Shown here piece after piece: positions 30,001 to 42,000 of a stretch of 64,000 nt of DNA. The position numbers are program-made. Every line of letters starts with the position of its first letter. Within the stretch, counting starts at the first letter, position 1. Source of the DNA: Escherichia coli (GTDB taxonomy: Bacteria > Pseudomonadota > Gammaproteobacteria > Enterobacterales > Enterobacteriaceae); the NCBI RefSeq assembly GCF_001677475.2, contig NZ_CP015229.1. One strand, 5' to 3'.

Positions 30001-33000
30001 AGATAGGAATTTACATGCCAAACTCTGCTTAACAATGTGTATTGATTTTATATATAATAGAAGAAAAAATCTTGCCTGCGATTTCTTGTTTTTCTCTAAA
30101 GCTTATCAATTTTCCTCACGTCAGAGAGCTTTCTCTTACGGAACTCAATGTGGAAAAATAAAAGATGCAGTCCTAACTCCAAATGGAAAAATAAATTCGG
30201 TTCTTAAGGCATTCATCCCCGCTCCCTTAACCAGGTCAAAAACGATCTCGTATTTATTAAGAAAAGGTGATTATATTATAACAGTATTAAATATCGATGA
30301 TACCGGACACACCATAGCTCTCCATAATCAAGATGAGCCTGAGATATTTGATCCTAATAAGGGATTATTTACACTAGAATATTTATGGGAGTTAACAGAT
30401 TTTATAACCCAACAATATGATAATAAGGGAATATATATTTATAAATGCTTATAAAAGACTCTCTTTATGCATGGCTAATAATCCGTTATGATAACTATAA
30501 GTTAATAGTTCCGGTTATTACAGGTCAATAAGCATACATTTATCAACCAACCCCGTACTTCTGTACGGGGGATGTTCTGTTACTCCACTCCCACTTTTTT
30601 GTTGTACTCGCGGTTAAACCGATCCACGGCAATTTTCATATCCCGCTCTACCGATTTCACCATCGCCGACTGTTGCGCCAGACTGAGAGTACTGTCGGCG
30701 TAAATGGCATCACGCTGTTTACGCAAATCCTTCAGTCTCTTCCGGGTATCCTGCATAAGCCCGTTCATCGACAATTTTCCGTTGTTCTCGTCAATGAACG
30801 CCGTTCTTTCTGCACCGGTCAGACTCTTCAGCTCTGCGTGATACTGCGCGACCTCCGTCATCCGGTCGTACATCTTCTGCTGGTCAGCATACGGCATCAC
30901 CTCACCTGAAATTTTCCCCAGGAAGGGCACCTGCTGTTCCGGTATATCAATACCATTCAGCGATTTCACCGCCGCATCCGTGGTTTTGGAAATGAAGCGC
31001 CCTGTCCCTCCGGAGATATAGTCAATCCAGAATTTCAGCGATTCCGGTGTGATATCCACCGCGCCGGGACGATACTGGCTGCCACCTGAGAACGCATTCA
31101 GCCAGGATGCAAACGCCTTGTACGCTTCTGGCGTTGAACGTCTTCCCAGCTGGCTGTCAGGTTTTGGTGTACCAAACGGTATGTTCTCCTGGTAAATCTG
31201 CGCCCCCATGAAGTTTTCATTCATGGCAAGGTTCGCAAACGGACGCAGAATGGTCGGCGCTGCATTTTTCAGCAATGCCCCGGACAGTGTTTCCGACGTT
31301 TCACTGCCCACAGGACTGAATGCCCCAAGCACACCACCAACAACATTACCGGCAGCACGTGAAGCGGTCAGGTCGCCCGCTGCCACCCCTTCGGCTGTGT
31401 GACCAAGCAGGAAGAAAACGTTGTACCCGTAAGGCAGAGGAATACTCCAGTACTCTCCGGCCTTGCCCCCGAACACCGATTTCATAATGACGAGGTTACG
31501 CTCTTTCACATGAGACGGCACCTTGTCATACCAGTTAACCCCGTCATCATCCTCCCCCGCAACACTGCGGTTAAGCGAGCCAAGCAGATAACCCGCTCCC
31601 ACAGCTGCAAGCGCGATTTTCTGCGTTACATTGAGATTCTTCCAGCGAAGGCGCTCCAGTAACGGCCCGTCGCCATTAAGATGTCCGAGCGTTCTCACCA
31701 AGTTTGCGGTCCCCTGAATGCTGGCGTTGGCAAACATATACAGCGAGTTCATCAGCGCTCCCTGCTCACCACGACGGTTAAAGTTCACCGTCATGTTTTT
31801 GGCAAGAGACGCCGCCTGCTGGCGTGACAAACCGGCATCACGAGCGTGCTTATAGGCAGAAAGACGCAGTGCGTTTTCAACCGCACCGTTGGCATCCTCT
31901 ACAAGGTTCAGGAACGAATTCCATGCACCGATACTCTGGCCTTTCCATCCTCCCTTCGCCAGCGATACAAGGCGATCCATTTCCTTCTGCTGGCCTTCAA
32001 GGTCACCCATGTTAAACCAGCCGGTTTTCCCTCCGTCCTCAACAAACTCTTTCCACACCTTCTGCCACTGCGCACCGTTGCCCGTGAGGGTTTTACCACG
32101 CAGACTGGCGTATACGGCAGACATGGCAGAACGGCTGTCTTTCACCACAGCCAGTGCGGATAAGTTATCCAGCCCTTTCAGTTTGCCGTCACTCCTTCCC
32201 TGCTCAGCCTTCAGGTTCATCACCGCCGTCTGCACGTCACGGATGAAGTTACTGACCAGAAATTCCGGGTTATACGACGTGTTCACCGTTGCCAGGAAGC
32301 GGTTAACTTTCCCCAGCGTACGGATTACGGCGTTACTGGTTTCCGGCCCCATGTTCTTCATCGCACGCATCAGGCGCGGATCATGAAGTTTAATGTAGTA
32401 AGTTTTGCCGTCCTTTTTGGTGGTGAAGTAGCGATCCGCCATCATTGCCATCGGCACAGGACGTTCGACAACTTCGCGACGGGTTTCGCCGGTTTCCGGA
32501 TCAACACGCTCTGCAATAGCACGCATGGTGTCCGGTCGCTCATTGGTGAATACCTGCCAGTAATCCTTGTCGGGATTATCCTGTACCAGTTTCAGGAAGG
32601 CGTTACCCACTTCATTTTTGCGATTGCGGATCAGCGATTCGCTCAAATCCTGTATCGCCTGAGTGGAAGGAGACTGTGCGCGGGATGCACGCCCCATGGC
32701 CTGCTTACTTTCACGCCCGCCGATGGTGAATCCCTTGCCTGTACGTGGCAGTGACACCACACCGTCAACATCCTGCCCTTTCAGGGGAACGTAGTAACGG
32801 TAGGCTTTCTGCCAGGCATCCACCACGCCGCTCTCTTCCAGTCCTGCCTCACGGATAATCTCACGGCGACGGGCCAGCATATCGTCAATAATCCCTGCCA
32901 GACGGTCATACTGTGCCTGTTTGCCGCTGTTACGCACACGCTGCATGATTTCCGCCGCTTCCGCGTTGGTCATCCCCGAACCGCCGTCCGGCATTTTAGG

Positions 33001-39000: not shown

Positions 39001-42000
39001 CAGGAAATGGTGTTAATGGAATATCATGAATTACTGGGCGTAATTCTGTTTCAGTCCACGGATAAACTGAGATGCAGATGAAGCACTTTCATCTCTGGCC
39101 TGTTCCCCCCTGGCCTTTTGAATACGGAGAAAATTCGCATACCCGTTCTCCAGCAATTTCTGATTCTGAGGCTCCAGCATTTCAGGCTGACGGGCCGCTA
39201 CATTTCTGGCAAATGACAGCTTATCAGGATCATCTCCCGCCCAGTTGATAACCTGTTGCTGAAGTTTTTGTTGCTGAATTTTCTGTTGATGCGGTTGTGA
39301 ACCAGTCGCAGCATAATATTCATCCACCGCAGCCTGTGCATTACCGCCATTCTTGATCGCGTCCGCCGCTACGTTGCTGGCCCCCTTCTGAAGCTCTTTC
39401 AGAGAAAGTCCCTGCTGCTTCGGCATAAAATAACCATAATTTTTCGATATCTCTGCAAATTTGCTGCGATCCCTGACCTGAGCGATAGCCTTATCAACGG
39501 GTATCGCCAGCACGGTTTGATCATCAGGGTGCGCACTGCCGTATTCTGTTACAGGTTTATGCGCGGTGGAGCCATCGCTGTATGTGAGATCAAGGCCAAT
39601 AAGTACGTACCCTTCCTGCTGCGCCGGTACGATACTGCCAATCCTGGCCTCTTTTATCGTTTTTTCCCCGGTTGAATCAGGCATGCCAATACGCTGTTGT
39701 AGTTCCGGGGCAAACACGCCGGAAAGCACATCGAGATTTTCCGGGGTATTCAGCGAATCGATCGCCATGTCCTGCTTATCACCAAAGATTTTTTGCAGGT
39801 TGATCACGGCCTGACCCGCTTTCGCTGCATAGCCTTCGTTTGACATAAGAATTAATGGATGTCCCTTTGGCAGCTGCCCGAACAGACGCGTTGCAGCCTC
39901 CTGATCGCCAGCCTCAATTGCTTTTCCAAGCGCTTCCATTAGTGGCTGGCTATGGGCAATCATATCGTTATACTCAAGCCGTCGCTGGTTGTATTTTTCC
40001 AGTTGCAGTCTCTGCTGAGATAGCCCAAGTGACGCATTTCGATAATTCTGCGCTGCTTTGTGTTCCCTCTCTTTCAGCGCATATTCACGGTCAGCATTCC
40101 TGACATTAAGATCATATGTACGCTGATCATTCTCTTTCCGGTGCTCAAACTGAGACTGCGCAAATTCAAAATCGCGCTCGTTATTTTTCTGTTGCTGAGC
40201 AAGCTGTGCTTCTCGCAAACCAAGCTCCTTACGACGGGTCATTGCCTGGTCAACAGTGCTGAATCCGGCAAGTAACCCCTGTGCAAATCCGCTCATTCAC
40301 CACTCCTTAAAACAAAGAACCAGCAATGCCGCCAATTACTGCACCAGCAACAGCGCCAACAGGACCACCAACGGATGCGCCAATAGCCGCCCCCGTACCA
40401 ATGCCCGTACCGATATTCTGTTTTTTCTGAGCTTTCTGTTGCGCCGCCATCATCTTGTTTGACGCCTCAATTTCTTCACGTCGTCGGTCTGCGTCACTTA
40501 TTCCCTGTAATGCCTCACGCCGTGACTGATTTGCAATATCCAGTAAACCGTATCCCATATTGCCCCCTTACGCTGCCACCAGTTGTCCGCCAACACTCAG
40601 TTTCTGTCTTGCCGGTGCAGAAGCCCCCGTCAGAATATTCATCTGGCGATCCTGTTCGGCTTCACGGATACCATTTTTCGCGCCAGCAATTGCCAGGGCA
40701 TTACGTAACCCCAGCGTATTACTGTCGGGATTATCCGGGCGGCTTACCCCGTATCTCGCCATCTGGTTATCCTGCGCCATCTGCGCTGTACGGAGACTGG
40801 AAGTGGCAAGGCCGCCAACCCGGGCAAGCTGTGCATTCATCAGACTGTTGTTCTCGCCAAGGTCAGCCAGCCTTGCCACGCGGGGCAAATATCTGGTTCG
40901 CCAGTCGTCGTATTGCTGGCGGGTCAGCGCTGCGGATGTCTGCCAGTCCCCCTGAGGGCGGGCTGCTCCGGTATAACCGTATCTCGCAAGTGTTTCGTAT
41001 TTACCGTACTCCATAATCACAATCTCCAGTTCTGAGCCTGATGCTGAATGGCATTAGCGCCAGTGCCAGGTGTTTTAGCACCGCCACTTCCTCCGCTACC
41101 GCCAGCCTTATGCATCGCATATGCACCTACCGCACCCAAACCAGCGCCAACAAGAGAGGCTCGCCCCTGCTGTTTCGTAAACGCAGCCTGTGCGTCCGAT
41201 TTAGCTTTTGCCAGACTGCTGTCTGCCAGCGAGTTAAAACTCTGTAACGCATCCGCCTTCTGACCAGAACCGAGAGCTGCAACATCCTGTAGCCCGGCAA
41301 CATACTTATCTGCCTGCGATACCTGCCCCCGTGTGGTTGTGTCAATCTGCCCGGTTACCTGATCACTCTGGTTCGCATTCATTACCGCGTTAAAACGACC
41401 ACTGGACGGGTCAACACCGGACTGAGCAAGATTACCCGCCAGCTCCTTCCGTGCTTCGCCAAACTGTTTCTGATACCCCAGATTTGTGGTGCCAGCAATA
41501 TTGTCGTACTGCTGCTCACTGTTCAGATCATCGACCTTTTCCATGAAGTTATCTTCAGCCGGGCGGAGGATTTTTTGATAATCCTGCCACCCTTTCCAGG
41601 CCACTTCTTCCTGTGCTATTTGCGCTGCTGTTGGTTTTACTTTGGTATCACCACCGCCTTTACTTCCACCCATAATGGCCCCCTGGATAACAAAAAAACC
41701 CTGCCGGAGCAGGGTCAGAATGTGAATTACAATGTTGGTTTAAACACAATGATGAAAACTGTAGCAGTCAGACCGCTATCCTGAACACCATGAAGCCATC
41801 CTCATCATCTGGCATTCGCTCAAAGCCCAGACGTTTTCCCAGCCGGATAAATCCCCGCCTTGCCGTATGAAATTCAGCCCAACGTCCGCCAGCCAGACGG
41901 GTTAATGTCTTCACCTCCGGCAGATAACGCTCAACTATGAGACGACAATAACTCAGTCCGCCTGGCGCCGATTATTCTGGCCGGTTTTGTAACCTGAGTG

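What the first reader, a model, noticed from the sequence alone, without database searches (positions are those of the whole stretch)
30580..41673. Five-gene minus-strand cassette ending in a 2793-codon giant ORF at the prophage terminus
Seen in sequence: four tightly packed ORFs (218 aa, 150 aa, 83-aa glycine-zipper membrane protein, 421 aa; junctions of 4-nt overlap or under 10-nt gaps) precede one uninterrupted 8.4-kb ORF. The giant protein has a Gly/Ala-rich N-terminal region with GxxxG-like spacing, a long acidic/charged low-complexity stretch, and a central region with two HExxH motifs; it shows no collagen or tape-measure periodicity. It lies distal to lom, next to the prophage-chromosome junction, which is the usual position of accessory or ejected proteins. 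Inference: either an ejection/internal-virion protein set of a short-tailed lambdoid phage or a polyvalent anti-defence protein delivered with the DNA. I recall that 933W-group Stx phages carry a very large ORF near this end, but I cannot verify identity without a search.
Basis: partly seen in the sequence, partly recalled or inferred. Interest (0 to 1): 0.8.

Follow-up and report, generated by a model that had tools for sequence, protein, structure and literature searches.

The report
Stx-phage internal ejection-protein cassette
These five genes are the known last late-operon module of 933W/phi24B-type Shiga-toxin phages; their proteins, including a 2793-residue multi-domain giant, are packed inside the virion and probably injected with the DNA, so the finding is real but not new.

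Summary
The five minus-strand ORFs exist as described: 218, 148/150, 83, 421 and 2793 aa. The giant most likely starts at ATG 38961.

The cassette is 90-96% identical over its full length to 186 sequenced 933W-group Stx phages. It is present in 422 of 5426 complete E. coli genomes. RefSeq calls the giant an "LPD5/LPD38 domain-containing protein".

A 2026 phi24B cryo-EM and proteomics preprint detects all five orthologues in purified virions. The giant has 93.6% coverage and an estimated 19-35 copies per virion. None of the five is modelled in the virion structure described.

Domain order in the giant:
- conserved N-terminal region
- acidic linker
- LPD5
- zincin peptidase (HEWFHxxD) plus LPD1
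- second peptidase of the HExxxH variant
- MuF-C, with a RelE-like RNase fold
- a ~930-aa C-terminal module containing LPD38

The C-terminal module occurs in more than 8500 protein clusters. It is always C-terminal, lies behind 0-4300 aa of variable sequence, and has no solved structural homologue.

The same five-gene order recurs in Vibrio podophages and in 23 of 46 diverse viral contigs. The first two genes are paralogues.

Best reading: an internal ejection-protein set whose giant also carries effector cargo. Ejection itself and the function remain untested.

The parts
41017..41673 (-). 218-aa protein, orthologue of phi24B gp51: an internal virion protein with a C-terminal Gly-rich segment
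   Evidence: ORF. PHROG 611, plus PHROG 8003 'virion structural protein' at E 7e-8. Homologous to Vibrio phage 252E42.2 p4 (28% identity, E 4e-16) and to Bcep22 gp70, a virion structural protein (E 4.5e-7). The phi24B orthologue has 28 peptides and 82% coverage, with an estimated 22-41 copies per virion.
40568..41014 (-). 148-aa protein (150 aa if GTG 41020 is the start), orthologue of phi24B gp50 and a paralogue of the 218-aa protein
   Evidence: PHROG 596. Homologous to Vibrio p5 (23% identity, E 2e-6). hhalign of the two family alignments gives probability 95.3%, E 2.2e-8 over 119 columns. The phi24B orthologue has 16 peptides and 81% coverage. No Pfam match.
40307..40558 (-). 83-aa protein with a coiled-coil N-terminus and a C-terminal glycine zipper; orthologue of phi24B gp49, labelled 'bacteriocin' in RefSeq
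   Evidence: Hydrophobic Gly-zipper at aa 57-75. PHROG 594. 44% identity to Vibrio p6. Present in 25 of 46 diverse loci at the same position in the gene order. In phi24B virions it gave 3 peptides and 16 spectra, and the authors set it aside as a contaminant.
39031..40296 (-). 421-aa protein, orthologue of phi24B gp48: an abundant internal virion protein
   Evidence: PHROG 601. The central domain is homologous to Vibrio p8 (E 8e-13). In phi24B it has 64 peptides, 92% coverage and an estimated 30-55 copies. Its N-terminal peptide SGFAQGLLAG... was observed. No significant Pfam match (best E 0.056).
38979..38998 (-). GC-rich hairpin plus T-run between the 421-aa gene and the giant gene (terminator- or attenuator-like), followed by GGAG and ATG 38961
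   Evidence: The fold z-score is only -1.3, so function is inferred from position alone.
30580..38961 (-). Giant 2793-aa polyvalent internal virion protein, orthologue of phi24B gp47 / 933W NP_049532
   Evidence: PHROG 616 over the full length. 95-96% nucleotide identity to Stx phages. [quoted passage not shown] Expression rises on prophage induction (PMC3342100, clone CM7).
37552..38739 (-). Conserved Gly/Ala-rich N-terminal region of the giant (aa 75-470), with a local Gly-zipper-like segment at aa 405-433
   Evidence: 26% identity to the Vibrio giant (E 1.7e-32). Found in 9 of the top 150 relatives. Hits PHROG 37568, and weakly the DarB-like PHROG 10089 (E 1e-4). The Pfam Gly-zipper match is only E 0.43.
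35842..37551 (-). Acidic, then Pro-rich, low-complexity linker (aa 471-1040)
   Evidence: Composition table: D+E 17-20%, and Pro 11% in aa 701-900. Poorly conserved: found in 7 of 150 relatives.
35362..35811 (-). LPD5 domain (aa 1051-1200)
   Evidence: Pfam PF18799, E 4.4e-45. Iyer et al. list LPD5 as possibly enzymatic.
34627..35361 (-). Zincin metallopeptidase 1 (HEWFHSLD at aa 1284-1291; conserved E1375 and E1382) plus LPD1 (aa 1361-1440)
33922..34554 (-). Metallopeptidase 2 of the HExxxH variant (H1551, E1552, H1556, E1607); no Pfam family matched this stretch
   Evidence: Conservation across 44 sequences. The HExxxH variant is described in PMC5512222. An HMM built from this domain hits 110 of the top 150 C-module proteins, within 300 aa upstream of the C-module in 74 of them. 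32% identity to the Vibrio giant.
33439..33714 (-). MuF-C domain (aa 1750-1841), a predicted BECR/RelE-fold RNase
30583..33384 (-). C-terminal ~930-aa module (aa 1860-2793) containing LPD38 (aa 2476-2681; nt 30919-31536); the family-defining part of the giant
30551..30570 (-). Hairpin 10 nt after the giant's stop codon; homology to free 933W-type phage genomes ends here
41697..41716 (-). Hairpin plus T-run 24 nt upstream of the 218-aa gene
   Evidence: The total number of such sites in the region is not above shuffles, so only its position is suggestive.

Best explanation
The cassette is the distal end of the late operon of a 933W/phi24B-type (Traversvirus) Stx-like prophage. It encodes the phage's internal virion proteins.

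Shown, for orthologues of about 95% nucleotide identity:
- All five products are present in purified virions.
- The three small ones that were examined by gel slice or N-terminal peptide behave as full-length proteins.
- The giant is mostly full length.
- The giant's transcript rises on induction.

Inferred:
1. After the tail needle is released, these proteins leave through the portal-tail channel ahead of or with the DNA. This would be the functional analogue of P22 gp7/gp20/gp16, T7 gp14/15/16 and N4 vRNAP.
2. The two paralogous small proteins, the glycine-zipper peptide, the 421-aa protein and the giant's conserved N- and C-terminal regions would build or prime the trans-envelope passage.
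3. The universally C-terminal ~930-aa module, with the adjacent HExxxH peptidase, is most likely the packaging/ejection 'chassis'. The comparison is with N4 vRNAP, whose MPTase-containing C-terminal region is needed for encapsidation.
4. The variable middle (LPD5, HExxH peptidase + LPD1, RelE-fold MuF-C) is cargo that acts in the newly infected cell. It may be freed by self-cleavage. It could take over the host or counter its defences.
For: Identity: full-length 90-96% match to 186 Stx phages and to 422 of 5426 E. coli genomes.

Late expression: PMC3342100, clone CM7.

Polyvalent domains. The motif details match PMC5512222. The predicted folds resemble zincins and RelE.

Module conservation:
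- The same five-gene order occurs in Vibrio phage 252E42.2.
- It also occurs in 23 of 46 diverse IMG/VR loci, plus 5 more cut by the locus edge.
- Bcep22-type phages share the p218 family and the C-module. Their giant is virion-associated by mass spectrometry.

Chassis-plus-cargo layout: the C-module is always C-terminal, behind 0-4295 aa of variable sequence. The HExxxH domain is present in 110 of the top 150 relatives.

Essentiality hint: the LPD38-bearing protein PTXU04_00025 is needed for efficient infection (10.1101/2023.09.18.558157).

N4 precedent for N-terminal injection and C-terminal encapsidation: PMC5512222.
Against: - Nobody has shown that these proteins leave the capsid or enter the cell. 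The phi24B sample was a mixture of full and empty particles.
- Copy numbers are spectral-count estimates, accurate to within a factor of 1-3.
- There is no sequence homology to P22, T7 or N4 ejection proteins, so that comparison is analogy only.
- No peptidoglycan hydrolase domain and no strong transmembrane segment is found in the giant.
- The assignment of the C-module to packaging or ejection rests on position and conservation, not on a test. Its predicted fold matches nothing solved.
- In this particular prophage, an IS21 element sits just upstream of the cassette and may impair late transcription.
- I did not verify homology between PTXU04_00025 and this C-module beyond the shared Pfam label.
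Confidence: 0.7

Rival explanations
1. The giant is chiefly a DarB-like anti-restriction or anti-defence accessory. It is packaged and injected to protect the incoming DNA, and is dispensable for infecting hosts that lack the relevant defences. The small genes would be its packaging helpers, as DarA, Hdf, DdrA and Ulx are for DarB in phage P1.
For: PHROG 10089 'DarB-like antirestriction' hits aa 2364-2694 and 341-459. The protein has polyvalent-protein domains. PMC5512222 argues that such proteins act in early conflict with the host. The P1 system does need several helper virion proteins (cited in PMC9144972).
Against: The defining DarB methylase-helicase dyad and LPD36 are absent. Pfam over all 2793 aa finds only LPD5, LPD1, MuF_C and LPD38. 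The stretch shared with the 'DarB-like' giants is the C-module, not the enzymatic part. The C-module and the small genes are conserved across Gram-negative, Gram-positive and one archaeal-virus record, and copy number is high. Both fit a core structural or ejection role better. An LPD38 protein is needed for infection of a laboratory E. coli host.
Confidence: 0.15
2. The five proteins are head-internal assembly or DNA-organising components: a core, a scaffold remnant, or filler that sets packaged DNA density in a T=9 head. They stay in the capsid and play no part in entry.
For: [quoted passage not shown] The T=9 head carries only about 58-62 kb, which leaves room for several MDa of protein. 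That is a rough estimate from my own knowledge that N4 packs about 72 kb in a T=9 head. The preprint notes that internal tail contents may constrain tail orientation in full particles.
Against: Peptidase and RNase-fold domains have no obvious use inside a capsid. The variable-cargo layout across thousands of relatives is typical of delivered effectors. N4 and P22 precedents show that such internal proteins exit with the DNA.
Confidence: 0.1
3. It is a lysogenic-conversion or toxin locus (a moron) expressed from the prophage. This is suggested by its place next to lom at the prophage end and by the 'bacteriocin' label on the 83-aa gene.
For: Its position is distal to lom, and RefSeq names the 83-aa protein 'bacteriocin'. 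Riley et al. once predicted the giant to be an outer-membrane protein.
Against: The genes are co-oriented and tightly packed with the late operon. Expression of the giant rises with induction. All five products are found in virions. The cassette is conserved in Vibrio podophages and diverse viral contigs, next to structural genes. The 'bacteriocin' label reflects only the glycine-rich segment.
Confidence: 0.03

Closest known systems
phi24B gp47-gp51 / 933W NP_049532 and its upstream genes (Traversvirus, Sepvirinae)
   Same: These are orthologues. The whole 11.1 kb is 95-96% identical at the nucleotide level, with the same gene order and sizes and the same position at the end of the late operon.
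   Different: This is a divergent allele: no phage or complete E. coli genome record reaches 99% identity. Here an IS21 element is inserted just upstream, and the prophage lies near ynfF next to other mobile DNA.
Phage-type polyvalent proteins (Iyer et al. 2017, PMC5512222)
   Same: A giant late-gene protein that strings together LPD5, LPD1, MuF-C (a PBECR RNase) and LPD38 with two MPTase domains. The two MPTases match the two variants that paper describes: HExxH with Asp at +3, and HExxxH.
   Different: None of the well-understood effector domains is present (methylase-helicase, ART, kinase, ParB, lysozyme). The paper does not mention the Stx phages (0 occurrences of '933W' or 'Stx').
Bcep22/JC1/Ralstonia GP4-type 'DarB-like' giants (4500-4600 aa)
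   Same: They share the C-terminal module (27% identity), part of the N-terminus, and the p218 family upstream. They are virion-associated by mass spectrometry. Portal, capsid and tail are related to those of 933W/phi24B.
   Different: Their middle regions carry different cargo. The DC1 record annotates transglycosylase, helicase and methylase, none of which is present here. I detected no homologue of the 148-, 83- or 421-aa genes in the stretch of Bcep22 searched.
Coliphage N4 virion RNA polymerase gp50
   Same: A giant protein packaged unprocessed in a T=9 podovirus head. Its layout is an N-terminal helical injection region, then cargo, then an MPTase plus C-terminal region needed for encapsidation. 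Small virion-protein genes lie directly upstream.
   Different: No detectable sequence homology. There is no RNA polymerase domain here.
P22 gp7/gp20/gp16 and T7 gp14/gp15/gp16 ejection proteins
   Same: A contiguous set of internal virion proteins in a short-tailed phage. They are present at tens of copies and are not resolved in the virion (P22 numbers in PMC8402733).
   Different: No sequence similarity in the PHROG or Pfam searches. The giant is 2-4 times larger than those proteins and carries enzyme-like cargo.

Membership tests
Phage-type polyvalent proteins (Iyer et al. 2017) | Several unrelated effector or LPD domains in one very large polypeptide | tested here: met
   Pfam finds LPD5 (E 4e-45), LPD1 (E 2.5e-23), MuF_C (E 1e-18) and LPD38 (E 5e-48) in a 2793-aa protein.
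Phage-type polyvalent proteins (Iyer et al. 2017) | One or more zincin-like MPTase domains (HExxH or HExxxH, plus a downstream Glu) | tested here: met
Phage-type polyvalent proteins (Iyer et al. 2017) | Encoded among late or virion genes | tested here: met
   It is the last gene of the structural/late block in Stx phages. The same context is seen in Vibrio, Bcep22 and IMG/VR loci.
Phage-type polyvalent proteins (Iyer et al. 2017) | Transferred into the host together with the DNA | not testable with these tools
   Packaging is shown for the phi24B orthologue. Transfer into the host has not been shown by anyone.
P1 DarB antirestriction protein | LPD36, N6-adenine methylase and SF2 helicase triad | tested here: not met
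   No methylase or helicase hit in Pfam, NCBIfam or PADLOC over the whole protein. The PHROG 'DarB-like' hit is confined to the C-module and a short N-terminal stretch.
P1 DarB antirestriction protein | Protects incoming DNA from type I restriction | not testable with these tools
   This needs plating assays on restriction-proficient and restriction-deficient hosts.
Podovirus ejection proteins (P22 gp7/20/16; T7 gp14/15/16) | Internal virion proteins that are not part of the capsid or tail shell | tested here: met
Podovirus ejection proteins (P22 gp7/20/16; T7 gp14/15/16) | Sequence or profile homology to those families | tested here: not met
   PHROG, Pfam and NCBIfam give no such hit for any of the five proteins.
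Podovirus ejection proteins (P22 gp7/20/16; T7 gp14/15/16) | Released on infection and forming a trans-envelope conduit | not testable with these tools
   This needs cryo-ET of infected cells and proteomics of ejected particles.
N4-like virion RNA polymerase | T7-like single-subunit RNA polymerase domain | tested here: not met
   No polymerase domain in Pfam. blastp, hmmsearch and hhalign against N4 gp50 are all non-significant. Only a weak PHROG 2206 hit (E 0.015) in the N-terminus.
Tail tape-measure protein | Part of a long tail; length-determining helical repeats | tested here: not met
   The phage is a podovirus whose tail is fully modelled without this protein. PHROG 167 (tape measure) hits only the 83-aa glycine zipper, at E 7e-4.

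The most novel reading that the evidence does not exclude
The five-gene module may define a very widespread, structurally unsolved type of podovirus protein-and-DNA delivery device, covering more than 8500 protein clusters. In this reading the C-terminal ~930-aa module and the adjacent HExxxH peptidase are a universal packaging/ejection chassis. The chassis can carry up to about 4300 aa of exchangeable effector cargo into the cell and release it by self-cleavage. The paralogous 218/148-aa pair, the glycine-zipper peptide and the 421-aa protein would form the channel. If so, Stx phages inject roughly 20-35 copies of an RNase- and peptidase-bearing effector into each new host.
Probability: 0.3. 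Interest if true: 0.7.

Novelty: already known. Interest (0 to 1): 0.35.

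Why it matters
Stx phages spread Shiga-toxin genes among enterobacteria, yet how these short-tailed phages get DNA across the envelope is not understood. This cassette takes up about 18% of the phage genome.

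By the published estimates it contributes several megadaltons of internal protein per virion. Knowing whether it is an ejection machine, an effector delivery system or both bears on host range and on the emergence of new STEC strains.

The C-terminal module is very common among the proteins of short-tailed phages and has no solved structural homologue, and it might be usable as a protein-delivery chassis. For this genome scan, however, the locus is a recognisable, already catalogued phage module.

Tried and rejected
**Searches that found no relative**
- PDB sequence and profile searches with the giant and with both alignments gave only low-complexity noise.
- Foldseek of the middle region against the PDB gave nothing at E<0.4.
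- PADLOC gave no meaningful hit.
- NCBIfam gave only a sub-threshold CLCA_X hit.
- Homology of the cassette to N4 gp50, gp51 and gp52 was rejected. blastp, hmmsearch and hhalign were all non-significant.

**Analyses that had to be redone or abandoned**
- My first iterative HMM search merged the p218 and p148 families. I redid it with best-family assignment. The cross-hits turned out to reflect real paralogy.
- I tried to map processing sites of gp47 from the phi24B supplement. The peptide sheet is pooled across gel slices, so this was impossible. The gp47 N-terminal peptide is not in the stored, truncated file.
- I tried to confirm that PTXU04_00025 belongs to the same C-module family by tblastn. 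It did not appear in the hits, so the link is at the level of the Pfam label only.

**Readings considered and dropped**
- The Xacm4-11 cryo-EM preprint describes a T7-like phage and is not informative here.
- Tape measure, collagen-like fibre and conversion-toxin readings were dropped (see rivals and membership tests).
- The phi24B preprint calls MuF-C a metallopeptidase. This is not supported. The peptidase motifs lie at aa 1284 and 1551, whereas MuF-C (aa 1750-1841) is classified as an RNase fold.

Full report
**1. Observation**

The minus strand of 30580-41673 carries five consecutive ORFs:
- 218 aa: 41673-41017
- 150 aa from GTG 41020, or 148 aa from ATG 41014
- 83 aa: 40558-40307
- 421 aa: 40296-39031
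- a stop-free frame 39000-30580 (2806 aa from the first ATG)

That start is preceded by GGAG, and PHROG 616 aligns from it. I take it as the real start.

The first three junctions are a 4-nt overlap (or 2-nt gap), 9 nt and 10 nt. The last is 69 nt and contains a GC hairpin with a T-run at 38998-38979. Similar hairpins lie 24 nt upstream of the first gene and 10 nt after the giant's stop codon. The number of such sites in the region is not above shuffles, so only their intergenic positions are suggestive.

Two HExxH strings occur at aa 1284 and 1551, where 0.03 is expected from composition. The N-terminus is Gly/Ala-rich and aa 401-700 is acidic. GxxxG-type spacing in aa 1-470 is not above composition.

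**2. Identity**

The 11.1-kb stretch matches 186 phage records over its full length at 90-96% identity. All are 933W-group Stx phages or relatives: phi24B, AU5Stx1, PA2, TL-2011c, POCJ13 and others. It also matches 422 of 5426 complete E. coli genomes.

RefSeq names the giant 'LPD5 (or LPD38) domain-containing protein' and the 83-aa product 'bacteriocin'. In free phage genomes the giant gene ends about 80-120 bp from the record end. In the window, homology to those genomes stops at 30551, 29 bp after the stop codon.

Between that point and ynfF (which ends at 26436) lies other mobile DNA: an antA-like gene and a group II intron reverse transcriptase. An Ail/Lom-like gene is at 45017-45793. A 2.4-kb IS21-family element (41936-44344) has inserted into the small gene just upstream of the cassette. 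Window 24040-43384 is identical to IMG/VR contig UViG_2721755653_000006.

**3. What is published about the orthologues**

*Proteomics and structure.* A preprint of April 2026 on phi24B (10.64898/2026.04.10.717836) combines cryo-EM with proteomics of purified virions. Its gp47 is the giant. [quoted passage not shown] The authors propose it as an encapsidated ejection protein.

The supplementary tables give these figures:

| phi24B protein | Window ORF | Peptides | Coverage | Spectra | Estimated copies per virion |
|---|---|---|---|---|---|
| gp47 | giant | 422 | 93.6% | 12608 | 19-35 |
| gp48 | 421 aa | 64 | 92% | 1756 | 30-55 |
| gp51 | 218 aa | 28 | 82% | 551 | 22-41 |
| gp50 | 148 aa | 16 | 81% | 143 | 36-73 |
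| gp49 | 83 aa | 3 | 33% | 16 | not estimated |

- gp47 counts are highest in the top gel slice and tail off downwards.
- The authors set gp49 aside as a contaminant because of its 'bacteriocin' label.
- gp48 and gp51 peak in slices consistent with their full length.
- The N-terminal peptide of gp48 was seen.
- gp48, gp50 and gp51 have no structure-based copy number ('ND'), and none of gp48-gp51 is mentioned in the main text.

*Expression.* An earlier study (PMC3342100) found the giant (clone CM7, phi24B 49148-57571) to be immunoreactive and its expression to rise on induction.

*Related phages.* Bcep22-type phages have portal, capsid and head-closure proteins related to those of 933W. They also package their 4500-aa 'DarB-like' giant (PMC9144972). 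The phi24B tail resembles that of Ralstonia phage GP4.

*Essentiality.* A CRISPRi study found that a 2198-aa LPD38-bearing protein of coliphage PTXU04 is needed for efficient infection (10.1101/2023.09.18.558157). I could not confirm that this protein shares the whole C-module.

**4. Anatomy of the giant**

*Annotated domains.* Pfam on three overlapping segments finds LPD5 (aa 1051-1200), LPD1 (1361-1440), MuF_C (1750-1841) and LPD38 (2476-2681), and nothing else significant.

*First peptidase.* The motif is HEWFHSLD. H, E, H, the Asp three residues later and two downstream Glu are at least 90% conserved in 31 relatives. This is the phage-type MPTase described by Iyer et al. (PMC5512222).

*Second peptidase.* In 44 relatives the conserved residues are H1551, E1552, H1556 and E1607, whereas H1555 is not conserved. 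That is the HExxxH MPTase variant described in the same paper. No Pfam family matched this stretch.

*MuF-C.* That paper classifies MuF-C as a BECR/RelE-fold RNase. The phi24B preprint's phrase 'MuF-C metallopeptidase', and its idea that this domain digests peptidoglycan, are therefore not supported.

*What is absent.* There is no methylase, helicase, lysozyme or polymerase domain, and no strongly hydrophobic segment.

**5. The C-terminal module**

Residues 1860-2793 hit 8539 cluster representatives at E<=1e-3, and 4759 at E<=1e-30. In all of the top 150, the module ends the protein: a median of 3 residues follow it and at most 43. It is preceded by 0-4295 variable residues, median 1731.

The commonest companion is the HExxxH peptidase. 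It is present in 110 of the top 150, and lies within 300 aa upstream in 74. The first MPTase occurs in 31, LPD5 in 16, the N-terminal region in 9 and MuF-C in 8.

Among sequenced phages the module occurs in Vibrio podophages (41% identity), the record named Methanosarcina virus MetMV (28%), Bcep22 and Ralstonia GP4-type phages (27%) and Bacillus megaterium podophages (22%).

**6. The cassette as a module**

Vibrio phage 252E42.2 has the same order: 201 aa, 117 aa, a 77-aa 'bacteriocin', 467 aa and a 3066-aa giant. Each is homologous to its counterpart here, with E values of 4e-16, 2e-6, 3e-10 and 8e-13 for the four small genes. The giants align in the N-terminal region, the HExxxH domain and the C-module.

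I examined 46 diverse IMG/VR loci with upstream sequence, chosen only for encoding the C-module. Twenty-three have all four small genes upstream in the same order. Five more have the proximal genes but are cut by the locus edge. The remaining 18 have no detectable homologue; twelve of them are among the most distant (32-36% identity in the module), and six have 38-54% identity.

The 218-aa and 148-aa families are paralogues: hhalign gives probability 95.3%, E 2.2e-8 over 119 columns. The 218-aa family also matches Bcep22 gp70, a virion structural protein.

Glycine-zipper-like segments recur in the 83-aa protein, at the C-terminus of the 218-aa protein and at aa 405-433 of the giant.

**7. Mechanism**

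*Shown for orthologues:* late expression, presence of all five proteins in virions, the giant mostly full length, and the giant missing from the virion model.

*Inferred:* the set is the phage's internal ejection-protein complement. It would be functionally analogous to P22 gp7/20/16 (about 12, 30 and 12 copies per virion; PMC8402733) and T7 gp14/15/16.

The closest architectural parallel is N4 vRNAP. It has an N-terminal helical region for injection, then cargo, then an MPTase-containing C-terminal region required for encapsidation. It is packaged unprocessed, and small virion-protein genes lie directly upstream. There is no sequence homology to N4, so this is 'works like', not 'is a member of'.

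I therefore read the HExxxH peptidase plus C-module as the packaging/ejection chassis. I read the LPD5, MPTase/LPD1 and MuF-C block as cargo that acts in the new host. Self-cleavage, proposed for polyvalent proteins generally, is plausible but untested.

*Rivals:*
- a purely accessory DarB-like anti-restriction role; its defining enzymatic domains were tested here and are absent
- a non-ejected head-core role
- a conversion or toxin locus, which is contradicted by the virion and expression data

**8. Novelty and score**

The locus is a roughly 95%-identical allele of a cassette present in hundreds of sequenced Stx phages. Its giant belongs to the polyvalent-protein class defined in 2017, and its orthologue was shown to be a virion protein in 2026. 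It is already known.

- All four upstream genes belong with the giant in one conserved module.
- The first two genes are paralogues.
- gp49 is probably a genuine virion component rather than a contaminant.
- The second motif is an HExxxH peptidase that tracks the C-module.
- The C-module is strictly C-terminal and very widespread, and its predicted fold has no solved counterpart.

Function remains experimentally open, which keeps some interest: 0.35.

Noticed in passing
window 41936-44344 (istA 42029-43528, istB 43525-44280, + strand): An IS21-family element, with a target duplication of about 9 bp, has inserted into the 133-aa gene (homologue of AU5Stx1 gp80) immediately upstream of the cassette. 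It may be polar on late transcription, so this prophage may be defective.
   Followed up: partly
window 28053-29270 (+): A group II intron reverse transcriptase/maturase (TIGR04416, 438 bits, above its cut-off) lies in the mobile DNA between ynfF and the prophage end.
   Followed up: no
window 26437-30550: The DNA flanking the giant gene is not core chromosome. It holds an antA-like ORF (26976-27605) similar to the prophage remnant beside ynfF in E. coli O22:H8 strain 154, where ynfG is truncated. The 167-aa ORF at 29951-30454 has no NCBIfam family.
   Followed up: partly
window 41017-41673 and 40568-41014: The 218-aa and 148-aa proteins are ancient paralogues (hhalign probability 95.3%, E 2e-8). 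They share an N-terminal 'Q..W..Y....P' helix region. None of the papers I read mentions this.
   Followed up: yes
window 40307-40558; phi24B gp49: The phi24B preprint dismisses the 83-aa 'bacteriocin' homologue as a contaminant. Its fixed place in the conserved five-gene module (25 of 46 loci, and the Vibrio phages) suggests it is a real virion component. It may simply be hard to detect, being short and Gly-rich with few tryptic peptides.
   Followed up: partly
L006 (MK170447.1, Methanosarcina virus MetMV) 5557-14565: A record annotated as an archaeal virus encodes a 3002-aa protein with the same C-terminal module (28% identity over 830 aa). Either the module crosses domains of life or the host assignment deserves a second look.
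   Followed up: no
window 50888-52933 (-): A collagen-like repeat protein, with NCBIfam hits to Scl/Lcl adhesins. It is presumably a tail-fibre variant of this prophage, and it differs from the phi24B fibre region.
   Followed up: no
window 21526-23952 and 24010-26436 (+): Two tandem 808-aa paralogous ORFs. The second aligns with ynfF of E. coli strain 154, so these are the ynfE/ynfF pair. This places the prophage at the ynfF-ynfG region.
   Followed up: partly
L087 (phage N4) 14524-27524: N4 has the same layout of small virion-protein genes (gp52, 150 aa; gp51, 644 aa) directly upstream of its giant packaged protein gp50. There is no detectable sequence similarity to the Stx cassette.
   Followed up: yes
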